DNA of 64,000 nt from positions 1 to 64,000 of IMG/VR virus record IMGVR_UViG_3300036820_000014; one strand, written 5' to 3'. The notes below the pieces were generated by a model, which worked only from the letters and a program-made list of their open reading frames with translations, was not told where the DNA came from and searched no databases. Numbering within the stretch: the stretch's first letter is position 1; each line of letters opens with the position of its first letter. The position numbers were made by a program, and so were the translations under genes. Of the stretch, positions 21,494 through 28,193 are shown piece by piece. Source of the DNA: a virus.

Positions 21494-22582
21494 TCAGATC
21501 GGCTCCGCACCCAGCCCTCCGACACATCCAGGAGACAACCAAGCCCGCTCTCGGCCTCGGTTGGCTGAATTCCTTGTCTCTCCGGATGAGTTGCCCATCG
21601 CTCGACGAGCTCGCCACCACACGGTCCGCCAACCCGGCAAGTCAAAATCCTCGTTGTATCCCGCCACCACGATCCTCATCCCAGGAAGTGCTTCATTCTC
21701 TCGGCACCAACCCTGGATGGCATCGTGAAGATCATCGTCGACCTCGTGCGCATAAACCTCGGATCGCTCATTGAGCCGGTATGGGGGATCGAGGAATACG
21801 CCCATGCTGTTGGCACCACTCATCGCTCCCGTCGTAACGATGCGTGACCAGTTCCCCGACGCACATCGGACGCTTCGCAGACGGGCCGACAGATGACCGA
21901 ACCAGTCTTGGAGGTCTTCGTAGCTCCGCACTGTTGACTTACTGGCGTTCTGGGCATTGACCCGAGGGATGTGCCGGGTGACACCCTGGGCGCTCGTCAT
22001 GTGAGGCCGTTTGCGATCGACCCCATTGGCTTCACTGATGCGAGGGATTTGCTTTCTAAATCCTTTCGCCTCAGAGCGCCGACTCTTTTGGACTCGTCCA
22101 TCGACTACGCGCCACGGGCCAGTTCCGGAACACCAACCTGAGCCAATCCAATTCGATAGGCCCCACGCCCACCACCCGGCGATCTTTGCATCGCAGTAGT
22201 CCGGGTCGGCCTCGAGTCGGCTGGCTAACTCCGAGCCGTGGTTAACCAACCAGAGATGTCGTGCGGTGAGGTCCAGCTCGTGGACGTGGCTGTCGGCCCA
22301 GCGAGCGACCTCATCGGGGTCGGACTTGATCGCGCGCCAGAAGTTGGCGACATATCCATCCTTGTCATTAACCAATTCCCGACGTCGAGCACATTCTTGG
22401 ATCTCGAGCGGTCGCCTGAGCAGGACCGCCAGTGATCCGCCAAATGGCTCTGCGAAGACGTCCGGATTGCCGAGAGCCCTCCACACAAGAGGAGCGAGTT
22501 GGCTCTTTCCGCCGAAGTAGGGAAAGGGTGCCGCCAGCCGAGGGTCTATTGCTTCAGCCACTCGGTCCCACACTTCGGGCAC
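21494..22582 (-). CDS. DNA adenine methyltransferase (Dam/D12 class)
   Basis: PFPYFGGKS, EPFGGS, VND, FLDPPY. Confidence 0.9.
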   Translation of the reverse strand: MPEVWDRVAEAIDPRLAAPFPYFGGKSQLAPLVWRALGNPDVFAEPFGGSLAVLLRRPLEIQECARRRELVNDKDGYVANFWRAIKSDPDEVARWADSHVHELDLTARHLWLVNHGSELASRLEADPDYCDAKIAGWWAWGLSNWIGSGWCSGTGPWRVVDGRVQKSRRSEAKGFRKQIPRISEANGVDRKRPHMTSAQGVTRHIPRVNAQNASKSTVRSYEDLQDWFGHLSARLRSVRCASGNWSRIVTTGAMSGANSMGVFLDPPYRLNERSEVYAHEVDDDLHDAIQGWCRENEALPGMRIVVAGYNEDFDLPGWRTVWWRARRAMGNSSGETRNSANRGRERAWLSPGCVGGLGAEPI

Positions 22583-23223
22583 TGGAGCGTCTCGGGCTCC
22601 TTGCGCGCATCGAAGCTGACTCGCTCGGTCTGAGCCGAGTCCTCAGCCTGGATCGAATCGAGGATCGCTCCGACGTCGACCTGGTCGAATCCGATTCCTT
22701 CAAGCGAGCCGGCGTTCGCGTGGGTCTCGATGATGGCGGTCAGGTTCGGGACGTGCCATCCGCCTAACTCCACAAGTCGGTTGACCCCGACGAGCATGGC
22801 CCGTGCCTCGTCGTCATCGATGGAGGACCAGCCCTCGTAGACCGGAGCCATCCAGACTCCGTCCTCGTCTATCACGATCCCCTCAGGTAAGTCTTCGGCA
22901 GAGTCCGCCATCTCGGCCAGTAGCGCATCCGTGCGGCCGTGGCCTTCGGCTATCAGACCCGTGCGTCCGTCGATGACGATGGGAGAGATGAAGCCGAAGC
23001 GTCGGATCGATGCTCGAATCTCTGCGTCAGCGTGGAGCTTCGGGTTGTCCGGATTCGGCGGGAGGTCCGTGATCCGCCTATAGCCGAGGCTCCTGGGCGA
23101 GATCACCGCGTCGGGGACGGCCGCGTCGGGAGTTGCAAGATCTGTCACTGGCCGGATGTTACGGCCGGGCGAGCCATCCCGCTTCTCTTGCTTCGATCGG
23201 ATGCTGGTTATGGATCCAGTCAT
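22546..23223 (-). CDS. ParB-like N-terminal domain protein with C-terminal Zn ribbon
   Basis: NPKLH, SIRRFGF.SPIVID, EGHGR, NRL.E.GGW, CPKCG. Confidence 0.8.
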   Translation of the reverse strand: MTGSITSIRSKQEKRDGSPGRNIRPVTDLATPDAAVPDAVISPRSLGYRRITDLPPNPDNPKLHADAEIRASIRRFGFISPIVIDGRTGLIAEGHGRTDALLAEMADSAEDLPEGIVIDEDGVWMAPVYEGWSSIDDDEARAMLVGVNRLVELGGWHVPNLTAIIETHANAGSLEGIGFDQVDVGAILDSIQAEDSAQTERVSFDARKEPETLQCPKCGTEWLKQ

Positions 23224-23533
23224 GGCACTCGAGGCAGATGTGCAAGAGGTTGGTCAGGAGATTCTTGCCCCCGTCAGAGACGGGAAGGACGTGATGGCGG
23301 TGCTCGCCCCAGTAGTGGCACTTGGCCGAGACGAGGATCTCGCACACACCGTGCGACCTCTCGAGCAACGCCGGCGTGATGGCGTCCAACTCGTCGAGGA
23401 AGGCCCGTTTCTCCGGACTGATCCGACGCAGCCCTTTCCGACGCGGCCGAAGCGGAGCGCGCTTTAAGCGGGTTTCCGAACGCTTCATCTCGGTCCGTTT
23501 CATCTGAACCGGATGCCGGCTTTCACCGCTCAT
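23159..23533 (-). CDS. HNH endonuclease
   Basis: CEI...HH...GG...NLLHICLECHDWIH. Confidence 0.85.
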   Translation of the reverse strand: MSGESRHPVQMKRTEMKRSETRLKRAPLRPRRKGLRRISPEKRAFLDELDAITPALLERSHGVCEILVSAKCHYWGEHRHHVLPVSDGGKNLLTNLLHICLECHDWIHNQHPIEAREAGWLARP

Positions 23534-24497: not shown

Positions 24498-24926
24498 TCA
24501 CCATCGTCGTCGTTCAGGGTCATCTTCCTCGCCGACTGGGTCGACCCCTACCAACCTGAACTGGCCTTTCGCTTCTTGCGTATCGCGCTCGCGCTTGTCT
24601 GCCACCTTGCCAACCATCTTGTCGAGCCGCGTGCCGGTGTCTTTGCGATCATCGATCATCACGATCACCGCATCAAACTCCTCGATCTGATGTATTCCAA
24701 GCAGCAAGCCGTCCTCTTTCGAGTAGACGTTGGCATAGCTGGTCTTGCGCTGGCGGATCCGCATCAGACAGTCCTCGTAGCCGTCTGTCTGGAAGACGTG
24801 CGGTGCTATGTCCACCGAGTCCTCCAGCCCGTTGCCCGTCTTCTTGATGACGATCGACTGGCCGAGAATCGGTAGCCCGTTGTGCTCGCCGAGGTCGTTG
24901 TCTTCGTCAGTGTTTGCCACGGTCAT
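24498..24926 (-). CDS. Conserved actinophage hypothetical protein
   Basis: RBS GAGAGGAA; KKTGNGLEDSV; ATGA overlap. Confidence 0.65.
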   Translation of the reverse strand: MTVANTDEDNDLGEHNGLPILGQSIVIKKTGNGLEDSVDIAPHVFQTDGYEDCLMRIRQRKTSYANVYSKEDGLLLGIHQIEEFDAVIVMIDDRKDTGTRLDKMVGKVADKRERDTQEAKGQFRLVGVDPVGEEDDPERRRW

Positions 24927-26644
24927 TTGGTTCCTCTCTGTTGTTGGATCATGCGTCGGCCTATCCACTCTGCGACCGGAACGCAAACGGCATTGCCGAG
25001 CGTGCGGTATCGAGCTGAGTCGTTCAGAGTCGAGGTCCAGTCATCGGGGAATCCCTGGAGTCGTTCCACCTCCAGGGGCGTTAATCGTCGGACAGCGAGA
25101 CTCCCCTGTGCTGATTCGTTTTCACCGCTCGTGGATCGCCCCACCGCTTGAACCTCTGATAATGCTTGTCGCACAGGCCCAAGCCCTTCTGAGGCTTGCC
25201 ACATACCGTGCAAAGTGCACGTCCGCAATGCTCCTTCATGTGACAGGAACGACAAATACGTATCAAGTTGGTCGGCGAGTTGTTCAGGTGGTCGCCGTCC
25301 CGGTGGTGGACGTCCCTCGCTGAGGATCTCCCGCACTTCGAGCATGGTCCCGGTGGACAGATGGCCCGCGCTCGTCTGTGCGTTGTGGACCAGTTCGGGG
25401 TCTTGCTCAGGTATCGCCCAGTGAACCCCATCGCCATGCACTTCTGATGGCAGAACTTCCGGCGTTCGAAGTGGAACAAGGACTCCAAGACACCATTCGA
25501 CAAACGCTTCCTCTCCAACCTCTTCCCGCAGGACTCGCAGTACCGCTCCGGATCTGGCTTCCTCGGCATCGGCACGCGAATCACTGTAACCACCGGGTGA
25601 GGCTAGGACAGCAGTCGCGGTCCTAGCCGTGTGCCCGATCGCATCGAGGGTGTCGGTGCGGTCAGTCTCTTCCCATCGCTCGCAATCATCGGAGTCATGC
25701 GCCCGTTGCGCCTTGCGGTAGGCCACGACACGAACGCCTCGCTCGGTCGTCTTTGCTCCGTCGGTAGCCGAGATGGTCGGTGCCAGGTCGGTCGGAGTGG
25801 CCACCAGATCGGCTCCTTGCCCTGACTCTGGGTAGATCGAGAAGGCGACCAGGTGATGGGGTTCTTTTGCCTCATGGGCCGCAATTGGCGCGATCTGCTC
25901 CACCTCGTCCCACCATTCGTGGCCCGTCTCGGACGACACCGATACGCGCTCGTGCACGGCTACTCGGGCGCTGATGGCTGCTCCAGATTGGCCGACTGCT
26001 CCAGCGCTTGCCGCAAGCGTCCCGGCAACTCGCGACCCCGTCTCCCTGCTCGGCGGAGAATCCCCATCGCAGCTCTCGGGCTCAAAAAGTACCGAGAGTG
26101 CACCGGCTCTGTCTCCAAGACATCCGACAATGAAGACACGGCGGCGGCGCTGGGCCACTCCGAAGAATTGAGCGTCAAGCACCCGGTAGGCCCACCCATA
26201 CCCGAGTTCGGCCAGGGTTCCGAGAACCGTTGCCATGTCAGCTCCAGGACAGCATCCGGCACACTCGGCGTCATCGCATCCGGTGGGCTTGTGGCCCGAC
26301 GAAAGCAGTCCAGGGACGTTCTCGATGAGAACCCAACGGGGAGCAAGCGCCTCACTGACACGTACGAACTCGGTGAAAAGTCCGGATCGCTCGCCAGCCA
26401 GTCCCTTACGACGTCCAGCCACACTGACGTCTTGGCACGGGAATCCTCCGCAGAGAACATCGACTCTTGGGGCATCGGGACCTATCTCTTTCACATCATC
26501 GAAGCGGAGCATCTCCGGCCAGTGGAACTCCAGAACTTTGCGCGCGTCGGGATCGATCTCGCACTGCCAGGCACACGTCATCCCCGCTCGTTCGAGCCCC
26601 AGTCCTATGCCTTCGATCCCACTGAAGAGGGAACCGAATCTCAC
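24923..26644 (-). CDS. C5-cytosine DNA methyltransferase
   Basis: Motifs I SLFSGIEG, IV GGFPCQD, VI ENVPG, VIII QRRRRVF, IX RRLTPLEVERLQGFP, X RYRTLGNAV. Confidence 0.92.
   Translation of the reverse strand: MRFGSLFSGIEGIGLGLERAGMTCAWQCEIDPDARKVLEFHWPEMLRFDDVKEIGPDAPRVDVLCGGFPCQDVSVAGRRKGLAGERSGLFTEFVRVSEALAPRWVLIENVPGLLSSGHKPTGCDDAECAGCCPGADMATVLGTLAELGYGWAYRVLDAQFFGVAQRRRRVFIVGCLGDRAGALSVLFEPESCDGDSPPSRETGSRVAGTLAASAGAVGQSGAAISARVAVHERVSVSSETGHEWWDEVEQIAPIAAHEAKEPHHLVAFSIYPESGQGADLVATPTDLAPTISATDGAKTTERGVRVVAYRKAQRAHDSDDCERWEETDRTDTLDAIGHTARTATAVLASPGGYSDSRADAEEARSGAVLRVLREEVGEEAFVEWCLGVLVPLRTPEVLPSEVHGDGVHWAIPEQDPELVHNAQTSAGHLSTGTMLEVREILSEGRPPPGRRPPEQLADQLDTYLSFLSHEGALRTCTLHGMWQASEGLGPVRQALSEVQAVGRSTSGENESAQGSLAVRRLTPLEVERLQGFPDDWTSTLNDSARYRTLGNAVCVPVAEWIGRRMIQQQRGTK
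25081..25575 (-). CDS. HNH endonuclease nested out of frame in the C5-MTase gene
   Basis: CESCGK...KFCHQKC, CSKCG...DVHHRDGDHLNNSPTNLIRICRSCHMKEH, CTVCGK...GLCDKHYQRFKRWGDP; TACAGT 7 nt before GTG. Confidence 0.85.
   Translation of the reverse strand: MPMPRKPDPERYCESCGKRLERKRLSNGVLESLFHFERRKFCHQKCMAMGFTGRYLSKTPNWSTTHRRARAICPPGPCSKCGRSSARDVHHRDGDHLNNSPTNLIRICRSCHMKEHCGRALCTVCGKPQKGLGLCDKHYQRFKRWGDPRAVKTNQHRGVSLSDD
25960..26475 (-). CDS. Alternative-frame polypeptide within C5-MTase (M.EcoHK31I beta-like)
   Basis: WPNSGM...SEWPSAAAVSSLSDVLE...YFLSPRAAMGILRRAGRRGRELP. Confidence 0.7.
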   Translation of the reverse strand: MPQESMFSAEDSRAKTSVWLDVVRDWLASDPDFSPSSYVSVRRLLPVGFSSRTSLDCFRRATSPPDAMTPSVPDAVLELTWQRFSEPWPNSGMGGPTGCLTLNSSEWPSAAAVSSLSDVLETEPVHSRYFLSPRAAMGILRRAGRRGRELPGRLRQALEQSANLEQPSAPE

Positions 26645-26874
26645 GCGTGGGCCCTGCCCCTGCAGGTGGCGAAGTGAGCGAAGCGACGTGGGCCTTCATG
26701 GACCTCGTCCTTTTTCAGGATCCTCACCATTGGCACATCGGAGTCTGGATCGATCATCACGACCTTGGCCTTGTCGCCTTTGTCTGGCCACGGGTTGACG
26801 GGCATGCGCTTGCCCTTCTCAGTCACACACCACACGATCGCCACGCCGCAACGATTGCATTTGGTTGTCTTCAC
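26641..26874 (-). CDS. Conserved phage Zn-binding protein
   Basis: CNRCG.AIVW..T..GKRMPV...HFATC. Confidence 0.75.
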   Translation of the reverse strand: MKTTKCNRCGVAIVWCVTEKGKRMPVNPWPDKGDKAKVVMIDPDSDVPMVRILKKDEVHEGPRRFAHFATCRGRAHA

Positions 26875-28193
26875 GCCGTCTCCTCCTCTACGCCACGTCC
26901 TAACTCGAGCAACCGGCCTGCGGGAGACGCTGGCGTCGTGTCCTCGACAGACAGGAACATCCCAACCCGCTCGCGTGCCAGGTCGGCGTTCCGCCCATCG
27001 ATGTCAATCCCCACGGCGGTACGACCGTGACCAGTGGCCACCATGAGCGTCGTGCCACTGCCGGCGAATGGATCCAAGACGCACCCAGGGCGGTAGTCGT
27101 CGTGAGAGCAGGCTGTCCAACCGAGGGTGGTGGCGACTCGGTCCATGGTTGGCTTTCCAGCTGCACCCGTTCCGTTCGTGCGTCCATCGGGTTCTTTCAG
27201 GTCACGTCGCTGCCCAGTGGTCCCACCTGACCCGCGGACGTAAGAGACATCGACCATCCGCCTCGACGGCTCCCCACACACCCGACAAACACGTTCCGGG
27301 CACATCGACTTGATAAAGGGCACACACAGGTCGGCCGGCCAGGTCGCATAGTGCGATCCCTTGTAGGGCGATGTCGGGATCACCAGGTAGGACGGGAACT
27401 CCTGGTCTTCGTCCATCTCGATCCAGTCGAGGGGTGGCGCGCCCGCCTCGTTGATCGGTGAATTGCGAAATCGCTCTCCCTTGTCGTTCAGCGACACGTC
27501 CTTGCGCTCGTGGCGGTTGTCATCGGGGAACTTGTGCGGCGTCCGCACCGCGTCCTGGTCGTAGTAACGCGTCCGGCTCTTGCACGCCACGGTCAGATAG
27601 CTCGTAGCGGGTCTGAACTTGTCCCCCAGCGCGCCGACGGGTGGGTTCGGACGATTCCACGCCACCAGATTCCTGATGCGCCAGGGGTCGATGGTGCGCT
27701 CTGGACGGAGCAGGTTGCGCCCGTAGGCGAGCGACCAGGCGAAGAGGGTGGGGATGCCGGTGAGGGACTTGTCAAGGGGCCAGCCGAGGCGAGCCTTCGT
27801 CATTCGCCCCGGGCCCGTGCGCTCCATCGTGGACTCGACGCGGCGGGCATAGGCGCTGCCCGTGAACGCGGGCTGAGCGGCTCGCAGGCCGTTGTCGGTG
27901 TAGTCCCCGCCCGCCCCGCCGCTTCCGCTGTAGGTGTCGCCGAGCTCGAACACCAGCGAACCGTGCGGCGCGAGCACGCGGTCACAGGCCTCCACCACGT
28001 CGAGCAAGTCGTCGAGGAAGCCAGCCGGCGTCGGCTCCGATCCGATCTCCTTGGATTTCTCGGGATGATCGGGTGGTAGGTAACTCCGCAGAGCAAGAAA
28101 CGGAGGAGAACTCAGTATCAGGTCGACGGATTCGTCTGGCAACGAAGCCAGGCCATCGAGGACGTCGCCGACGATGAACCGCGCGGTGCTCAC
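26871..28193 (-). CDS. Amino (N4-C/N6-A) DNA methyltransferase, beta class
   Basis: SSPPFLALRSY before HYAT.P and VLDPFAGSGTT; CRVC...CSH insert. Confidence 0.9.
   Translation of the reverse strand: MSTARFIVGDVLDGLASLPDESVDLILSSPPFLALRSYLPPDHPEKSKEIGSEPTPAGFLDDLLDVVEACDRVLAPHGSLVFELGDTYSGSGGAGGDYTDNGLRAAQPAFTGSAYARRVESTMERTGPGRMTKARLGWPLDKSLTGIPTLFAWSLAYGRNLLRPERTIDPWRIRNLVAWNRPNPPVGALGDKFRPATSYLTVACKSRTRYYDQDAVRTPHKFPDDNRHERKDVSLNDKGERFRNSPINEAGAPPLDWIEMDEDQEFPSYLVIPTSPYKGSHYATWPADLCVPFIKSMCPERVCRVCGEPSRRMVDVSYVRGSGGTTGQRRDLKEPDGRTNGTGAAGKPTMDRVATTLGWTACSHDDYRPGCVLDPFAGSGTTLMVATGHGRTAVGIDIDGRNADLARERVGMFLSVEDTTPASPAGRLLELGRGVEEETA

What the first reader, a model, noticed from the sequence alone, without database searches (positions are those of the whole stretch)
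25081..25588. Complete HNH endonuclease overprinted inside an uninterrupted C5-methyltransferase frame
A 164-aa Zn-finger/HNH/Zn-finger protein lies wholly in the +1 frame between the MTase target-recognition region and motif IX. The MTase frame stays open across it, reading as non-MTase filler, and resumes at AVRRLTPLEVERLQGFP; the HNH stop falls inside the motif IX codons. I see no intein or intron signature. It has its own apparent leaderless promoter (TACAGT-N7-GTG). Inference: a homing endonuclease that avoids disrupting its host gene by dual coding instead of splicing. Caveat: high GC makes long alternative frames less rare.
Basis: partly seen in the sequence, partly recalled or inferred. 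Interest (0 to 1): 0.82.

Follow-up and report, generated by a model that had tools for sequence, protein, structure and literature searches.

The report
Hidden HNH nuclease gene inside methyltransferase
A probably selfish HNH nuclease gene sits in a shifted reading frame inside a soil phage's DNA cytosine-methyltransferase gene, and selection keeps the methyltransferase frame stop-free so it can be read straight through; this splicing-free trick was first published in 2025, so this is a new variant and not a new kind.

Summary
On the minus strand a 573-aa C5-methyltransferase ORF (24923-26644) runs uninterrupted across a 162-170-aa zinc-finger/HNH/zinc-ribbon ORF (25081-25569/25593) in its +1 frame. 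The HNH stop (TAA) lies in the Leu521-Thr522 codons of motif IX.

It is not a high-GC accident. Synonymous shuffling of the HNH codons leaves the methyltransferase frame open in 0.3% of trials here, and in 2 or fewer of 5000 trials in 14 of 16 related loci (GC 33-66%, several phyla). All of these loci keep both frames open and the third closed. Free-standing relatives carry 8-45 stops in that frame.

The closest methyltransferase found (Virus Rctr41k) lacks the insert. No intron or intein signature was found.

The filler's amino-acid conservation is almost entirely a by-product of HNH conservation.

The principle is published (ShiLan domain, Arsenault et al. 2025). That case is in amino-methyltransferases, uses another frame and involves an unrelated HNH lineage. 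This scan already logged 22 similar findings on other DNA.

The same gene also carries an M.EcoHK31I-beta-like ORF.

Homing and read-through are inferred, not shown.

The parts
24923..26644 (-). C5 cytosine DNA methyltransferase, alpha chain, 573 aa, uninterrupted. Motifs I-VIII lie in aa 1-188, a TRD with APTISA in aa ~189-355, the insert read-through in aa ~356-515, and motifs IX-X in aa 517-557.
   Evidence: In the AF2 model, aa 1-188 and 519-573 are confident and 189-518 have pLDDT 22-44.
25081..25569 (-). HNH endonuclease ORF in the +1 frame, 162 aa from the family-conserved ATG (MPRKPDPERYC...). N-terminal zinc finger C11..C44 is at 25438-25539, the HNH core C76..H114 at 25228-25344, and the C-terminal zinc ribbon C120..H136 at 25162-25212.
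   Evidence: (invariant C, H and N residues).
25570..25600 (-). Upstream leader of the HNH frame. There is no good Shine-Dalgarno site before the ATG in this phage.
25100..25579 (-). MTase-frame read-through of the cassette ('filler', aa 356-515). It is stop-free, of low predicted confidence and partly helical.
25081..25083 (-). HNH stop codon TAA, formed by the TTA(Leu521)-ACG(Thr522) codons of MTase motif IX. TTA makes up 3.3% of Leu codons in neighbouring genes.
25043..25096 (-). MTase motif IX (AVRRLTPLEVERLQGFPD), where homology to insert-less MTases resumes. It is the likely part of the nuclease's target (inferred).
25960..26475 (-). Second +1-frame ORF, 171 aa (P0003), overlapping motifs IV-VIII. 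It is an M.EcoHK31I-beta-like accessory chain and belongs to the host gene, not to the cassette.
   Evidence: phrog_16143, 9e-7; relatives in the same relative frame in 10 loci, including both insert-less alleles; L027 is the one hit in another frame.

Best explanation
A roughly 0.5-kb cassette encoding a three-module HNH nuclease (zinc finger, HNH core, zinc ribbon) is inserted in the phage's C5-methyltransferase gene. It lies at the junction between the variable target-recognition region and motif IX, in the +1 phase.

The cassette's other reading frame is kept free of stop codons. Ribosomes translating the methyltransferase therefore read through it as a roughly 160-aa, poorly structured, partly helical loop and then resume at motif IX. 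This would give one full-length enzyme without RNA or protein splicing.

The nuclease is made separately by internal initiation at a conserved ATG. That ATG is Shine-Dalgarno-led in most relatives, but the signal is weak or absent in this phage. The nuclease ORF ends at a stop supplied by the Leu-Thr codons of motif IX.

The nuclease most likely acts as a homing enzyme that cuts insert-less methyltransferase alleles near the conserved motif IX sequence and is copied in by repair.

Shown here: the dual coding, the selection for the open frame, the intact catalytic residues of both proteins, the patchy distribution and the multiple insertion sites.

Inferred: translation of both products, methyltransferase activity with the loop, and cleavage and homing.
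For: - Anatomy.
- 17 loci (GC 33-66%; Staphylococcus phage CUB-EPI_14, Dokdonella, Peptococcaceae, Acidobacteriia, Virgibacillus, Treponema, Actinomycetes and Dehalococcoidales MAGs, IMG/VR contigs) have the HNH frame open for 147-200 aa, the MTase frame open across it, and the third frame closed.
- Synonymous-shuffle probability that the MTase frame stays open is 0.003 here, and 2 or fewer of 5000 in 14 of the other 16 loci (0 of 5000 in 12 of them). 2.4-12.9 stops are expected.
- Free-standing relatives have 8-45 stops in that frame.
- HNH amino-acid identity is 0.47. MTase-frame identity is 0.27, against 0.24 expected from the HNH constraint alone, so the HNH frame is the primary coding frame and the filler is mainly selected to lack stops. 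Only 5 database hits were found for the filler, against 104 for the HNH.
- The Zn-ligand and H/N catalytic columns are invariant in 41 homologues. Fold.
- The conserved ATG has an SD core in at least 13 of 17 loci. An HNH-frame stop lies 1-11 codons upstream in 12 of 17 loci, which argues against a frameshift fusion there.
- The insert-less closest MTase, Rctr41k, aligns at aa 1-207 and 511-572.
- The element lies before motif IX in most loci, between motifs IX and X in L009 and L011, and at both sites in L015.
- HNH copies are more alike (0.47) than their carrier MTase catalytic domains (0.37), r = 0.5.
- Decayed copies are present. L010 is 5'-truncated with the MTase frame still open. In L013 the MTase is broken and stops have appeared.
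- No Rfam intron and no Hint/intein domain were found.
- The element is identical, with no indels, in contigs from three soil-metagenome studies, two of which may be the source of this DNA.
- The published precedent for the principle is PMC11855218.
Against: - No expression, protein, splicing or cleavage data exist for this or any family member (no RNA holder is listed).
- This phage lacks a recognisable Shine-Dalgarno site before the conserved ATG, so its HNH may be poorly made.
- No insert-less allele of this same phage was seen in the three metagenomes, so recent mobility is not shown.
- HNH and carrier divergence are partly correlated (r = 0.5), so much of the inheritance is vertical.
- The whole aa 189-518 stretch of the MTase model, which includes the native TRD, has low confidence with only 11 sequences. 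The model therefore says little about how the loop is accommodated.
Confidence: 0.78

Rival explanations
1. Domesticated nuclease. The HNH is no longer (or never was) a homing enzyme. It serves the phage instead, for example in packaging, degradation of host or competitor DNA, or as a nuclease whose damage the carrier methyltransferase prevents. It is simply stored inside the methyltransferase gene.
For: Catalytic and zinc residues are invariant across 41 homologues. The HNH is intact in 17 of about 21 loci. There is partial co-divergence with the carrier, r = 0.5. No empty allele was found in the same phage population.
Against: The same HNH family occurs in MTases with different TRDs and subfamilies and at two different sites. 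Close MTase relatives lack it. Truncated and decayed copies exist. This phage has a separate free-standing HNH gene at 23159-23533.
Confidence: 0.14
2. Spliced element. The segment is a divergent group I/II intron or an unconventional intein that is removed, and the open MTase frame is incidental.
For: HNH genes are common intron passengers (general knowledge, and PMC11855218). Rfam covers only described intron families.
Against: A spliced intron is under no pressure to keep the host frame open, yet the frame is open in 17 of 17 intact loci, with per-locus probabilities mostly below 2e-4. No Rfam hit at E<=1 lies inside the MTase gene; the single hit, an lncRNA model at E 0.17, lies just upstream of it. 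The HNH is out of frame and Pfam finds no Hint domain, so it is not an intein. The HNH ORF overlaps motif IX codons that must remain in the mature message.
Confidence: 0.04
3. Chance or artefact. This would be a spurious long ORF in a GC-rich gene, or a nuclease domain that is really in frame and was displaced by two assembly frameshifts.
Against: PHROG HNH hit at 1e-11 and a pLDDT 92 model. There are 104 homologous clusters at 36-66% identity. The same two-frame layout is present in a 33% GC Staphylococcus phage. Contigs from three studies are colinear with no indels, though two may be the source of this DNA.
Confidence: 0.01

Closest known systems
ShiLan domain: hidden out-of-frame HNH endonuclease in mycobacteriophage DNA methylases (Gosselin et al. 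2023, PMC9957025; Arsenault, Gosselin & Gogarten 2025, Genes 16:178, PMC11855218)
   Same: An insertion of about 0.5-0.6 kb lies inside a phage DNA methylase gene. The host frame has no internal stop. Another frame encodes a zinc-finger/HNH/zinc-finger nuclease. No intron or intein signature is found. Distribution among related methylases is patchy. The HNH ORF ends in TAAC at the 3' junction.
   Different: - The ShiLan carriers (ShiLan_65, PopTart_63) are DPPY...DPFAGSGTT amino-methyltransferases, not C5 enzymes.
- That HNH is 195 aa, in the third frame, with a GTG start and proposed leaderless translation.
- tblastn with this HNH finds no mycobacteriophage at E<=1e-5.
- The ShiLan in-frame reading is Ala/Ser/Thr-rich and unlike the filler here.
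- The family here spans several bacterial phyla, has an ATG with an SD, and occupies at least two sites.
Pacc40 gp60 insertion (same 2025 paper)
   Same: A roughly 160-aa hidden nuclease-like ORF inside a methylase domain. Free-standing relatives lie next to methylase genes in other phages.
   Different: The carrier is a helicase-methylase fusion. The ORF's HNH assignment is uncertain and AP2-like. It was not detected by tblastn with this HNH.
M.EcoHK31I (two-polypeptide C5-methyltransferase with beta encoded in another frame inside alpha)
   Same: A conserved second ORF (P0003, 25960-26475) lies in another frame inside the alpha gene. It is also present in insert-less relatives (background in PMC2836561).
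   Different: In M.EcoHK31I, motif IX is on beta and alpha lacks it. Here alpha keeps its own motif IX. The beta-like ORF is 171 aa and carries a start-of-TRD-like segment. Whether it is a subunit was not tested.
Intron-encoded and free-standing HNH homing endonucleases (I-HmuI type)
   Same: The HNH beta-beta-alpha-metal core (Z 4.0 to 1u3e), and insertion next to a highly conserved coding motif of a phage gene.
   Different: There is no intron RNA, the host gene is not interrupted, and the flanking DNA-binding modules are different zinc modules.

Membership tests
HNH (His-Me finger) endonuclease | Sequence match to curated HNH family models | tested here: inconclusive
   Pfam HNH_3 scores 18.8 bits, below its 24.8 cut-off. 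PHROG HNH families hit at 1e-11, 6e-6 and 3e-4. Several homologues carry precomputed PF13392/PF01844, and NCBI names two of them 'HNH endonuclease signature motif containing protein'.
HNH (His-Me finger) endonuclease | Catalytic His...Asn...His motif with a flanking CxxC...CxxC zinc site | tested here: met
   C76, C79, H89, N101, C106, C109, H110 and H114 are invariant and H88 and N97 are at least 90% conserved in 41 homologues. The motif reads DVHHRDGDHLNNSPTNLIRICRSCHMKEH.
HNH (His-Me finger) endonuclease | Beta-beta-alpha-metal fold | tested here: met
   The AF2 model has pLDDT 92. In VIA-align, residues 55-117 match EcoKMcrA (Z 5.2), the IscB HNH (4.8), the GVE2 HNH (4.7), the Gme HNH (4.6) and I-HmuI (4.0). 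HNH nucleases dominate the list, although the Z values are modest. Foldseek alone was not significant.
Hidden out-of-frame HNH insertion in a phage methylase (ShiLan-type element) | Insert present in some methylases and absent from close homologues, with no stop in the host frame | tested here: met
Hidden out-of-frame HNH insertion in a phage methylase (ShiLan-type element) | No self-splicing intron or intein signature | tested here: met
   No Rfam intron family matched; the only hit at E<=1 is an lncRNA model outside the MTase gene. Pfam finds only PF00145 in the 573-aa protein.
Hidden out-of-frame HNH insertion in a phage methylase (ShiLan-type element) | Homology to the ShiLan HNH, with the same carrier family and the same frame | tested here: not met
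   The carrier here is PF00145, whereas the ShiLan carriers are DPPY amino-MTases. The frame here is +1, against 'third' in ShiLan. No mycobacteriophage hit at 1e-5. The ShiLan nucleotide record itself could not be fetched, so a direct alignment was not done.
C5 cytosine DNA methyltransferase (PF00145) | Motifs I, IV (PCQ), VI (ENV), VIII (QxRxR), IX and X (GN) in order | tested here: met
   PF00145 at 4.9e-62. Motifs read.
Group I intron with an HNH ORF | Intron RNA core, with the host frame interrupted | tested here: not met
   No Rfam match. The host frame is open under selection.
Intein | In-frame Hint splicing blocks flanking the endonuclease | tested here: not met
   The HNH is out of frame. 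No Hint domain was found.
M.EcoHK31I-type two-frame methyltransferase | Second polypeptide encoded in another frame within the alpha gene and needed for activity | tested here: inconclusive
   The ORF is conserved in the same relative frame in 10 loci, including the insert-less ones, and hits a PHROG 'DNA methyltransferase' family. Requirement for activity cannot be tested here, and alpha keeps motif IX, unlike M.EcoHK31I.

The most novel reading that the evidence does not exclude
The nuclease and its carrier may be functionally coupled and not merely co-located. Under this reading the HNH would attack DNA (competitor phages, host, or unmodified alleles) that the carrier methyltransferase's modification protects. 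One stretch of DNA, read in two frames, would then be a self-contained, mobile restriction-modification-like or addiction module. The slight excess conservation of the read-through peptide (0.27 against 0.24 expected) would reflect a real role in the enzyme. Nothing here excludes this reading. However, the same HNH family sits in methyltransferases with different recognition domains, which argues against it.
Probability: 0.08. Interest if true: 0.8.

Novelty: new variant of a known kind. Interest (0 to 1): 0.45.

Why it matters
The finding shows that the splicing-free 'hide in another frame' strategy of a mobile nuclease is not a curiosity of a few mycobacteriophage methylases.

A distinct HNH lineage uses the same strategy in C5-methyltransferase genes of phages and prophages from several bacterial phyla. 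It always uses the same phase, and there is measurable selection to keep the carrier frame stop-free.

For annotation, methyltransferases of about 550-700 aa with an unexplained block before motif IX should be checked for this overlooked gene.

For biology, the family gives a tractable test of how much foreign peptide a methyltransferase tolerates at the TRD/motif IX junction, and of how overlapping genes are maintained. The cultured Staphylococcus phage CUB-EPI_14 carries the same layout.

In this phage, one 1.7-kb gene appears to encode three proteins.

Tried and rejected
- **ShiLan genome.** Two accession numbers guessed from memory were wrong (one search returned phage LinStu; one search was a 41.6-kb record). 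No direct nucleotide comparison was therefore made, and the carrier family was read from the 2023 paper's supplement instead.
- **Cluster J mycobacteriophage methyltransferases** (NihilNomen, Omega). These are split into two adjacent genes, no gene is annotated inside them, and they were not scanned for a hidden HNH, so they gave no help.
- **megablast** of the region against phages found no match. **tblastn** of the HNH against plasmids found no match.
- **Foldseek** against the PDB gave nothing at E<=0.001. A profile search against PDB sequences gave no hit.
The context of the NCBI-named Phenylobacterium and Methylorubrum HNH proteins could not be checked.
- **Expression.** No RNA holder is listed for this DNA.
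- **Laying contigs of three soil metagenomes** showed no insert-less allele of this phage. The one 'joint' is another organism's methyltransferase matching only at conserved motifs.
- **Promoter scan** found no sigma-70-type site on the minus strand near the HNH start.
- **'Recoded duplication'** at the cassette borders, a lead from an earlier scan note. I compared the flanking peptides by eye and found no convincing repeat in this window. The apparent likeness of the filler's start (AVLRVLREEVGEE) to motif IX is also present in L009 and L011, where an intact motif IX precedes the cassette, so it belongs to the cassette.
- **Frameshift fusion of MTase and HNH** was rejected for most loci. A stop lies 1-11 codons upstream of the conserved ATG in 12 of 17 loci.
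Full report
**What is in the sequence**

On the minus strand a 573-aa ORF (24923..26644) and a 170-aa ORF (25081..25593) overlap completely. The short ORF lies in the +1 frame of the long one.

The long ORF is a C5 cytosine methyltransferase. It matches PF00145 at 4.9e-62 and phrog_116 at 3e-88. Motifs I, IV, VI, VIII, IX and X are intact and in canonical order.

The short ORF has three modules: an N-terminal four-Cys zinc finger, an HNH core (DVHHRD...NN...CRSCH...H) and a C-terminal CxxC...CxxH ribbon.
- It matches PHROG HNH families at 1e-11.
- With 41 homologues, AlphaFold gives mean pLDDT 92.3.
- Residues 55-117 align structurally to EcoKMcrA, the IscB HNH, the GVE2 HNH, the Gme HNH and I-HmuI at Z 4.0-5.2.

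The HNH stop TAA is formed by TTA(Leu521)-ACG(Thr522) of motif IX. TTA makes up only 3.3% of Leu codons in neighbouring genes.

**Is it chance?**

No. I kept the HNH protein and its own codon pool and shuffled synonymous codons. The methyltransferase frame stayed open in 0.32% of 5000 trials, and 4.8 stops were expected.

The decisive evidence is comparative.
- tblastn found the same HNH (45% identity) inside the annotated DNA-cytosine methyltransferase gp45 of Staphylococcus phage CUB-EPI_14. That genome is 33% GC, and again both frames are open.
- Scans of IMG/VR and GTDB genomes gave 31 loci.
- Counting the window and CUB-EPI_14, 17 loci (GC 33-66%, several phyla) have an intact HNH of 147-200 aa, the methyltransferase frame open across it, and the third frame closed.
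- In 14 of the other 16 loci the shuffle probability is 2e-4 or less; it is 0 of 5000 in 12 of them.
- Free-standing relatives of the HNH carry 8-45 stops in the equivalent frame.

**Which frame is the real gene?**

Both are, but unequally.
- Mean pairwise identity is 0.47 in the HNH frame and 0.27 in the methyltransferase frame over the same codons.
- A null model that keeps each HNH protein and forbids stops in the other frame already gives 0.24.
- The filler's conserved look (ILRxLREExGEEA...LW...LRQAL) is therefore almost wholly a by-product of HNH conservation. The excess is small and may be residual ancestry.
- A word-based database search found 104 clusters for the HNH but only 5 for the filler.
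- A profile search found 163 representative proteins at E<=1e-30.
- In the AlphaFold model of the whole enzyme, aa 1-188 and 519-573 are confident and aa 189-518 have pLDDT 22-44. With only 11 sequences this also blurs the native recognition domain, so it is weak evidence.

**Where the cassette sits and how it starts and stops**

The closest methyltransferase found, Virus Rctr41k, lacks the insert. It aligns at aa 1-207 (51%) and aa 511-572 (63%).

In most loci the cassette lies just before motif IX. In L009 and L011 it lies between motifs IX and X. L012, L031 and L032 are a third methyltransferase type. L015 carries two HNH cassettes, one at each site, in the same +1 frame.

The HNH start is a conserved ATG 10-12 codons before the first CxxC; in one locus it is a GTG. 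At least 13 of 17 loci have a GGAG/GAGG core 4-12 nt upstream of that start (or of an in-frame ATG two codons upstream of it), encoded as Gly-Gly, Lys-Glu or Gly-Glu in the methyltransferase frame. An HNH-frame stop lies 1-11 codons upstream in 12 of 17 loci, which argues against a frameshift fusion there.

In this window the conserved ATG is at 25569 and has no good Shine-Dalgarno site. A GGTGG lies 5 nt before the GTG at 25584.

In at least seven loci, this one included, the stop falls in the Leu-Thr codons of motif IX.

**Mobility**

Several observations fit a homing cycle of invasion, residence and decay:
- HNH copies are more alike (0.47) than the catalytic domains of their carriers (0.37), with r = 0.5.
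- The window's HNH is closest to copies in a different methyltransferase subfamily (L028, 59%), while its closest carrier is insert-less.
- L010 has a 5'-truncated HNH with the methyltransferase frame still open.
- L014 has a broken HNH.
- L013 has a disrupted methyltransferase, and there the carrier frame has filled with 11 stops.

Against recent mobility, three soil-metagenome studies hold this phage at 95-100% of the sampled words, with the cassette colinear and no empty allele seen; two of them may be the source of this DNA.

**Alternatives**

- No Rfam family scores E<=1 inside the gene, and there is no Hint domain.
- An intron would not need an open host frame.
- An assembly artefact is excluded by the many independent assemblies.

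**Comparison with the literature**

A full-text search found Arsenault, Gosselin & Gogarten 2025 (PMC11855218) and its 2023 precursor (PMC9957025). These describe the 'ShiLan domain': a 202-aa in-frame insert in mycobacteriophage methylases that hides a 195-aa zinc-finger/HNH/zinc-finger ORF in the third frame. It has a GTG start 18 bp into the insert, ends in TAAC, has no intron or intein signature, and leaderless translation is proposed. They also describe a second case in Pacc40 gp60.

The principle is therefore known, but the present element is not a member of that lineage.
- ShiLan_65 and PopTart_63 are DPPY...DPFAGSGTT amino-methyltransferases.
- The frame differs.
- tblastn with this HNH finds no mycobacteriophage at 1e-5.

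What this family adds is a C5-methyltransferase carrier, cross-phylum spread, a Shine-Dalgarno-led ATG, at least two insertion sites, and a quantified selection signal.

This scan had already logged 22 similar findings in at least 21 other genomes, and the eight follow-up reports shown were all filed as variants of the ShiLan case.

**Context**

The same gene holds a second +1-frame ORF (25960-26475, 171 aa). It hits phrog_16143 'DNA methyltransferase', and relatives lie in the same relative frame in 10 loci, including both insert-less alleles. This resembles the beta chain of M.EcoHK31I, although alpha here keeps its own motif IX.

The gene lies in a phage DNA-metabolism block. The block also holds two further methyltransferases, a ParB-like protein, a free-standing HNH, a terminase-like protein and RecT-like and replication proteins. 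The methyltransferase stop overlaps the next gene's ATG, as ATGA at 24923-24926.

**Verdict**

This is a new variant of a kind published in 2025. Translation, methyltransferase activity with the loop, and homing remain to be shown.

Noticed in passing
window 25960-26475 (-): A 171-aa ORF in the same +1 frame overlaps methyltransferase motifs IV-VIII. It carries ...SEWPS.AAVSSLSDVLE..RYFLSPRAAMGILRRAGRRGRELP. It hits phrog_16143 'DNA methyltransferase' at 9e-7. Relatives lie in the same relative frame in 10 loci, including the insert-less alleles L034 and L035. It is M.EcoHK31I-beta-like, so one gene would encode three proteins.
   Followed up: partly
L015:1-1419: One methyltransferase ORF is read through two different HNH cassettes in its +1 frame. 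One is 5'-truncated and lies before motif IX. The other, a divergent HNH, lies between motifs IX and X. A beta-like segment is also present in the same frame.
   Followed up: partly
L009:661-1122 and L011:2486-2938: The same HNH family is inserted after an intact motif IX (VRRLTP.ECARLQGFPDDY) and before motif X. This is a second insertion site, in the same phase.
   Followed up: partly
L003:1544-3126, L027:1313-3312: The carrier methyltransferase is itself spread over two frames (L003) or three frames (L027). In L003, motifs I-VI run directly into the beta-like segment in one frame, and motifs VII-X with the cassette are in another frame. This suggests frameshifting or a multi-chain enzyme.
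   Followed up: no
L013:421-3123: This is a decayed version. The methyltransferase N-domain is at 421-1050. The carrier frame is broken, with 11 stops across the HNH. The HNH lacks its C-terminal ribbon. Motifs IX-X survive as a separate 83-aa ORF with its own ATG, overlapping the HNH 3' end.
   Followed up: partly
L030:3-3225: In a 33% GC Treponema MAG, the methyltransferase is split by about 1.6 kb that holds another 238-aa endonuclease-like ORF. The C-terminal piece still reads through the HNH cassette.
   Followed up: no
window 26240-26296 (-), MTase aa 117-135: A Cys-rich extra segment (HKPTGCDDAECAGCCPGAD) lies between motifs VI and VII. It replaces a 4-residue link in Rctr41k, a net insertion of 15 aa, and is not seen in the other relatives. 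Its model confidence is low.
   Followed up: no
window 21494-23533 and 26871-28193 (-): The block around the gene holds a ParB-like protein (22546-23223), two further methyltransferases (21494-22582, phrog_56; 26871-28193, SPPF...DPFAGSGTT type with a Cys-rich insert) and a free-standing 124-aa HNH (23159-23533). The phage therefore carries three methyltransferases and two HNH genes within 7 kb.
   Followed up: partly
window 24923-24926 (-): The methyltransferase stop TGA overlaps the ATG of the next gene (ATGA). That gene encodes a 142-aa protein with no PHROG match. The overlap suggests translational coupling.
   Followed up: no
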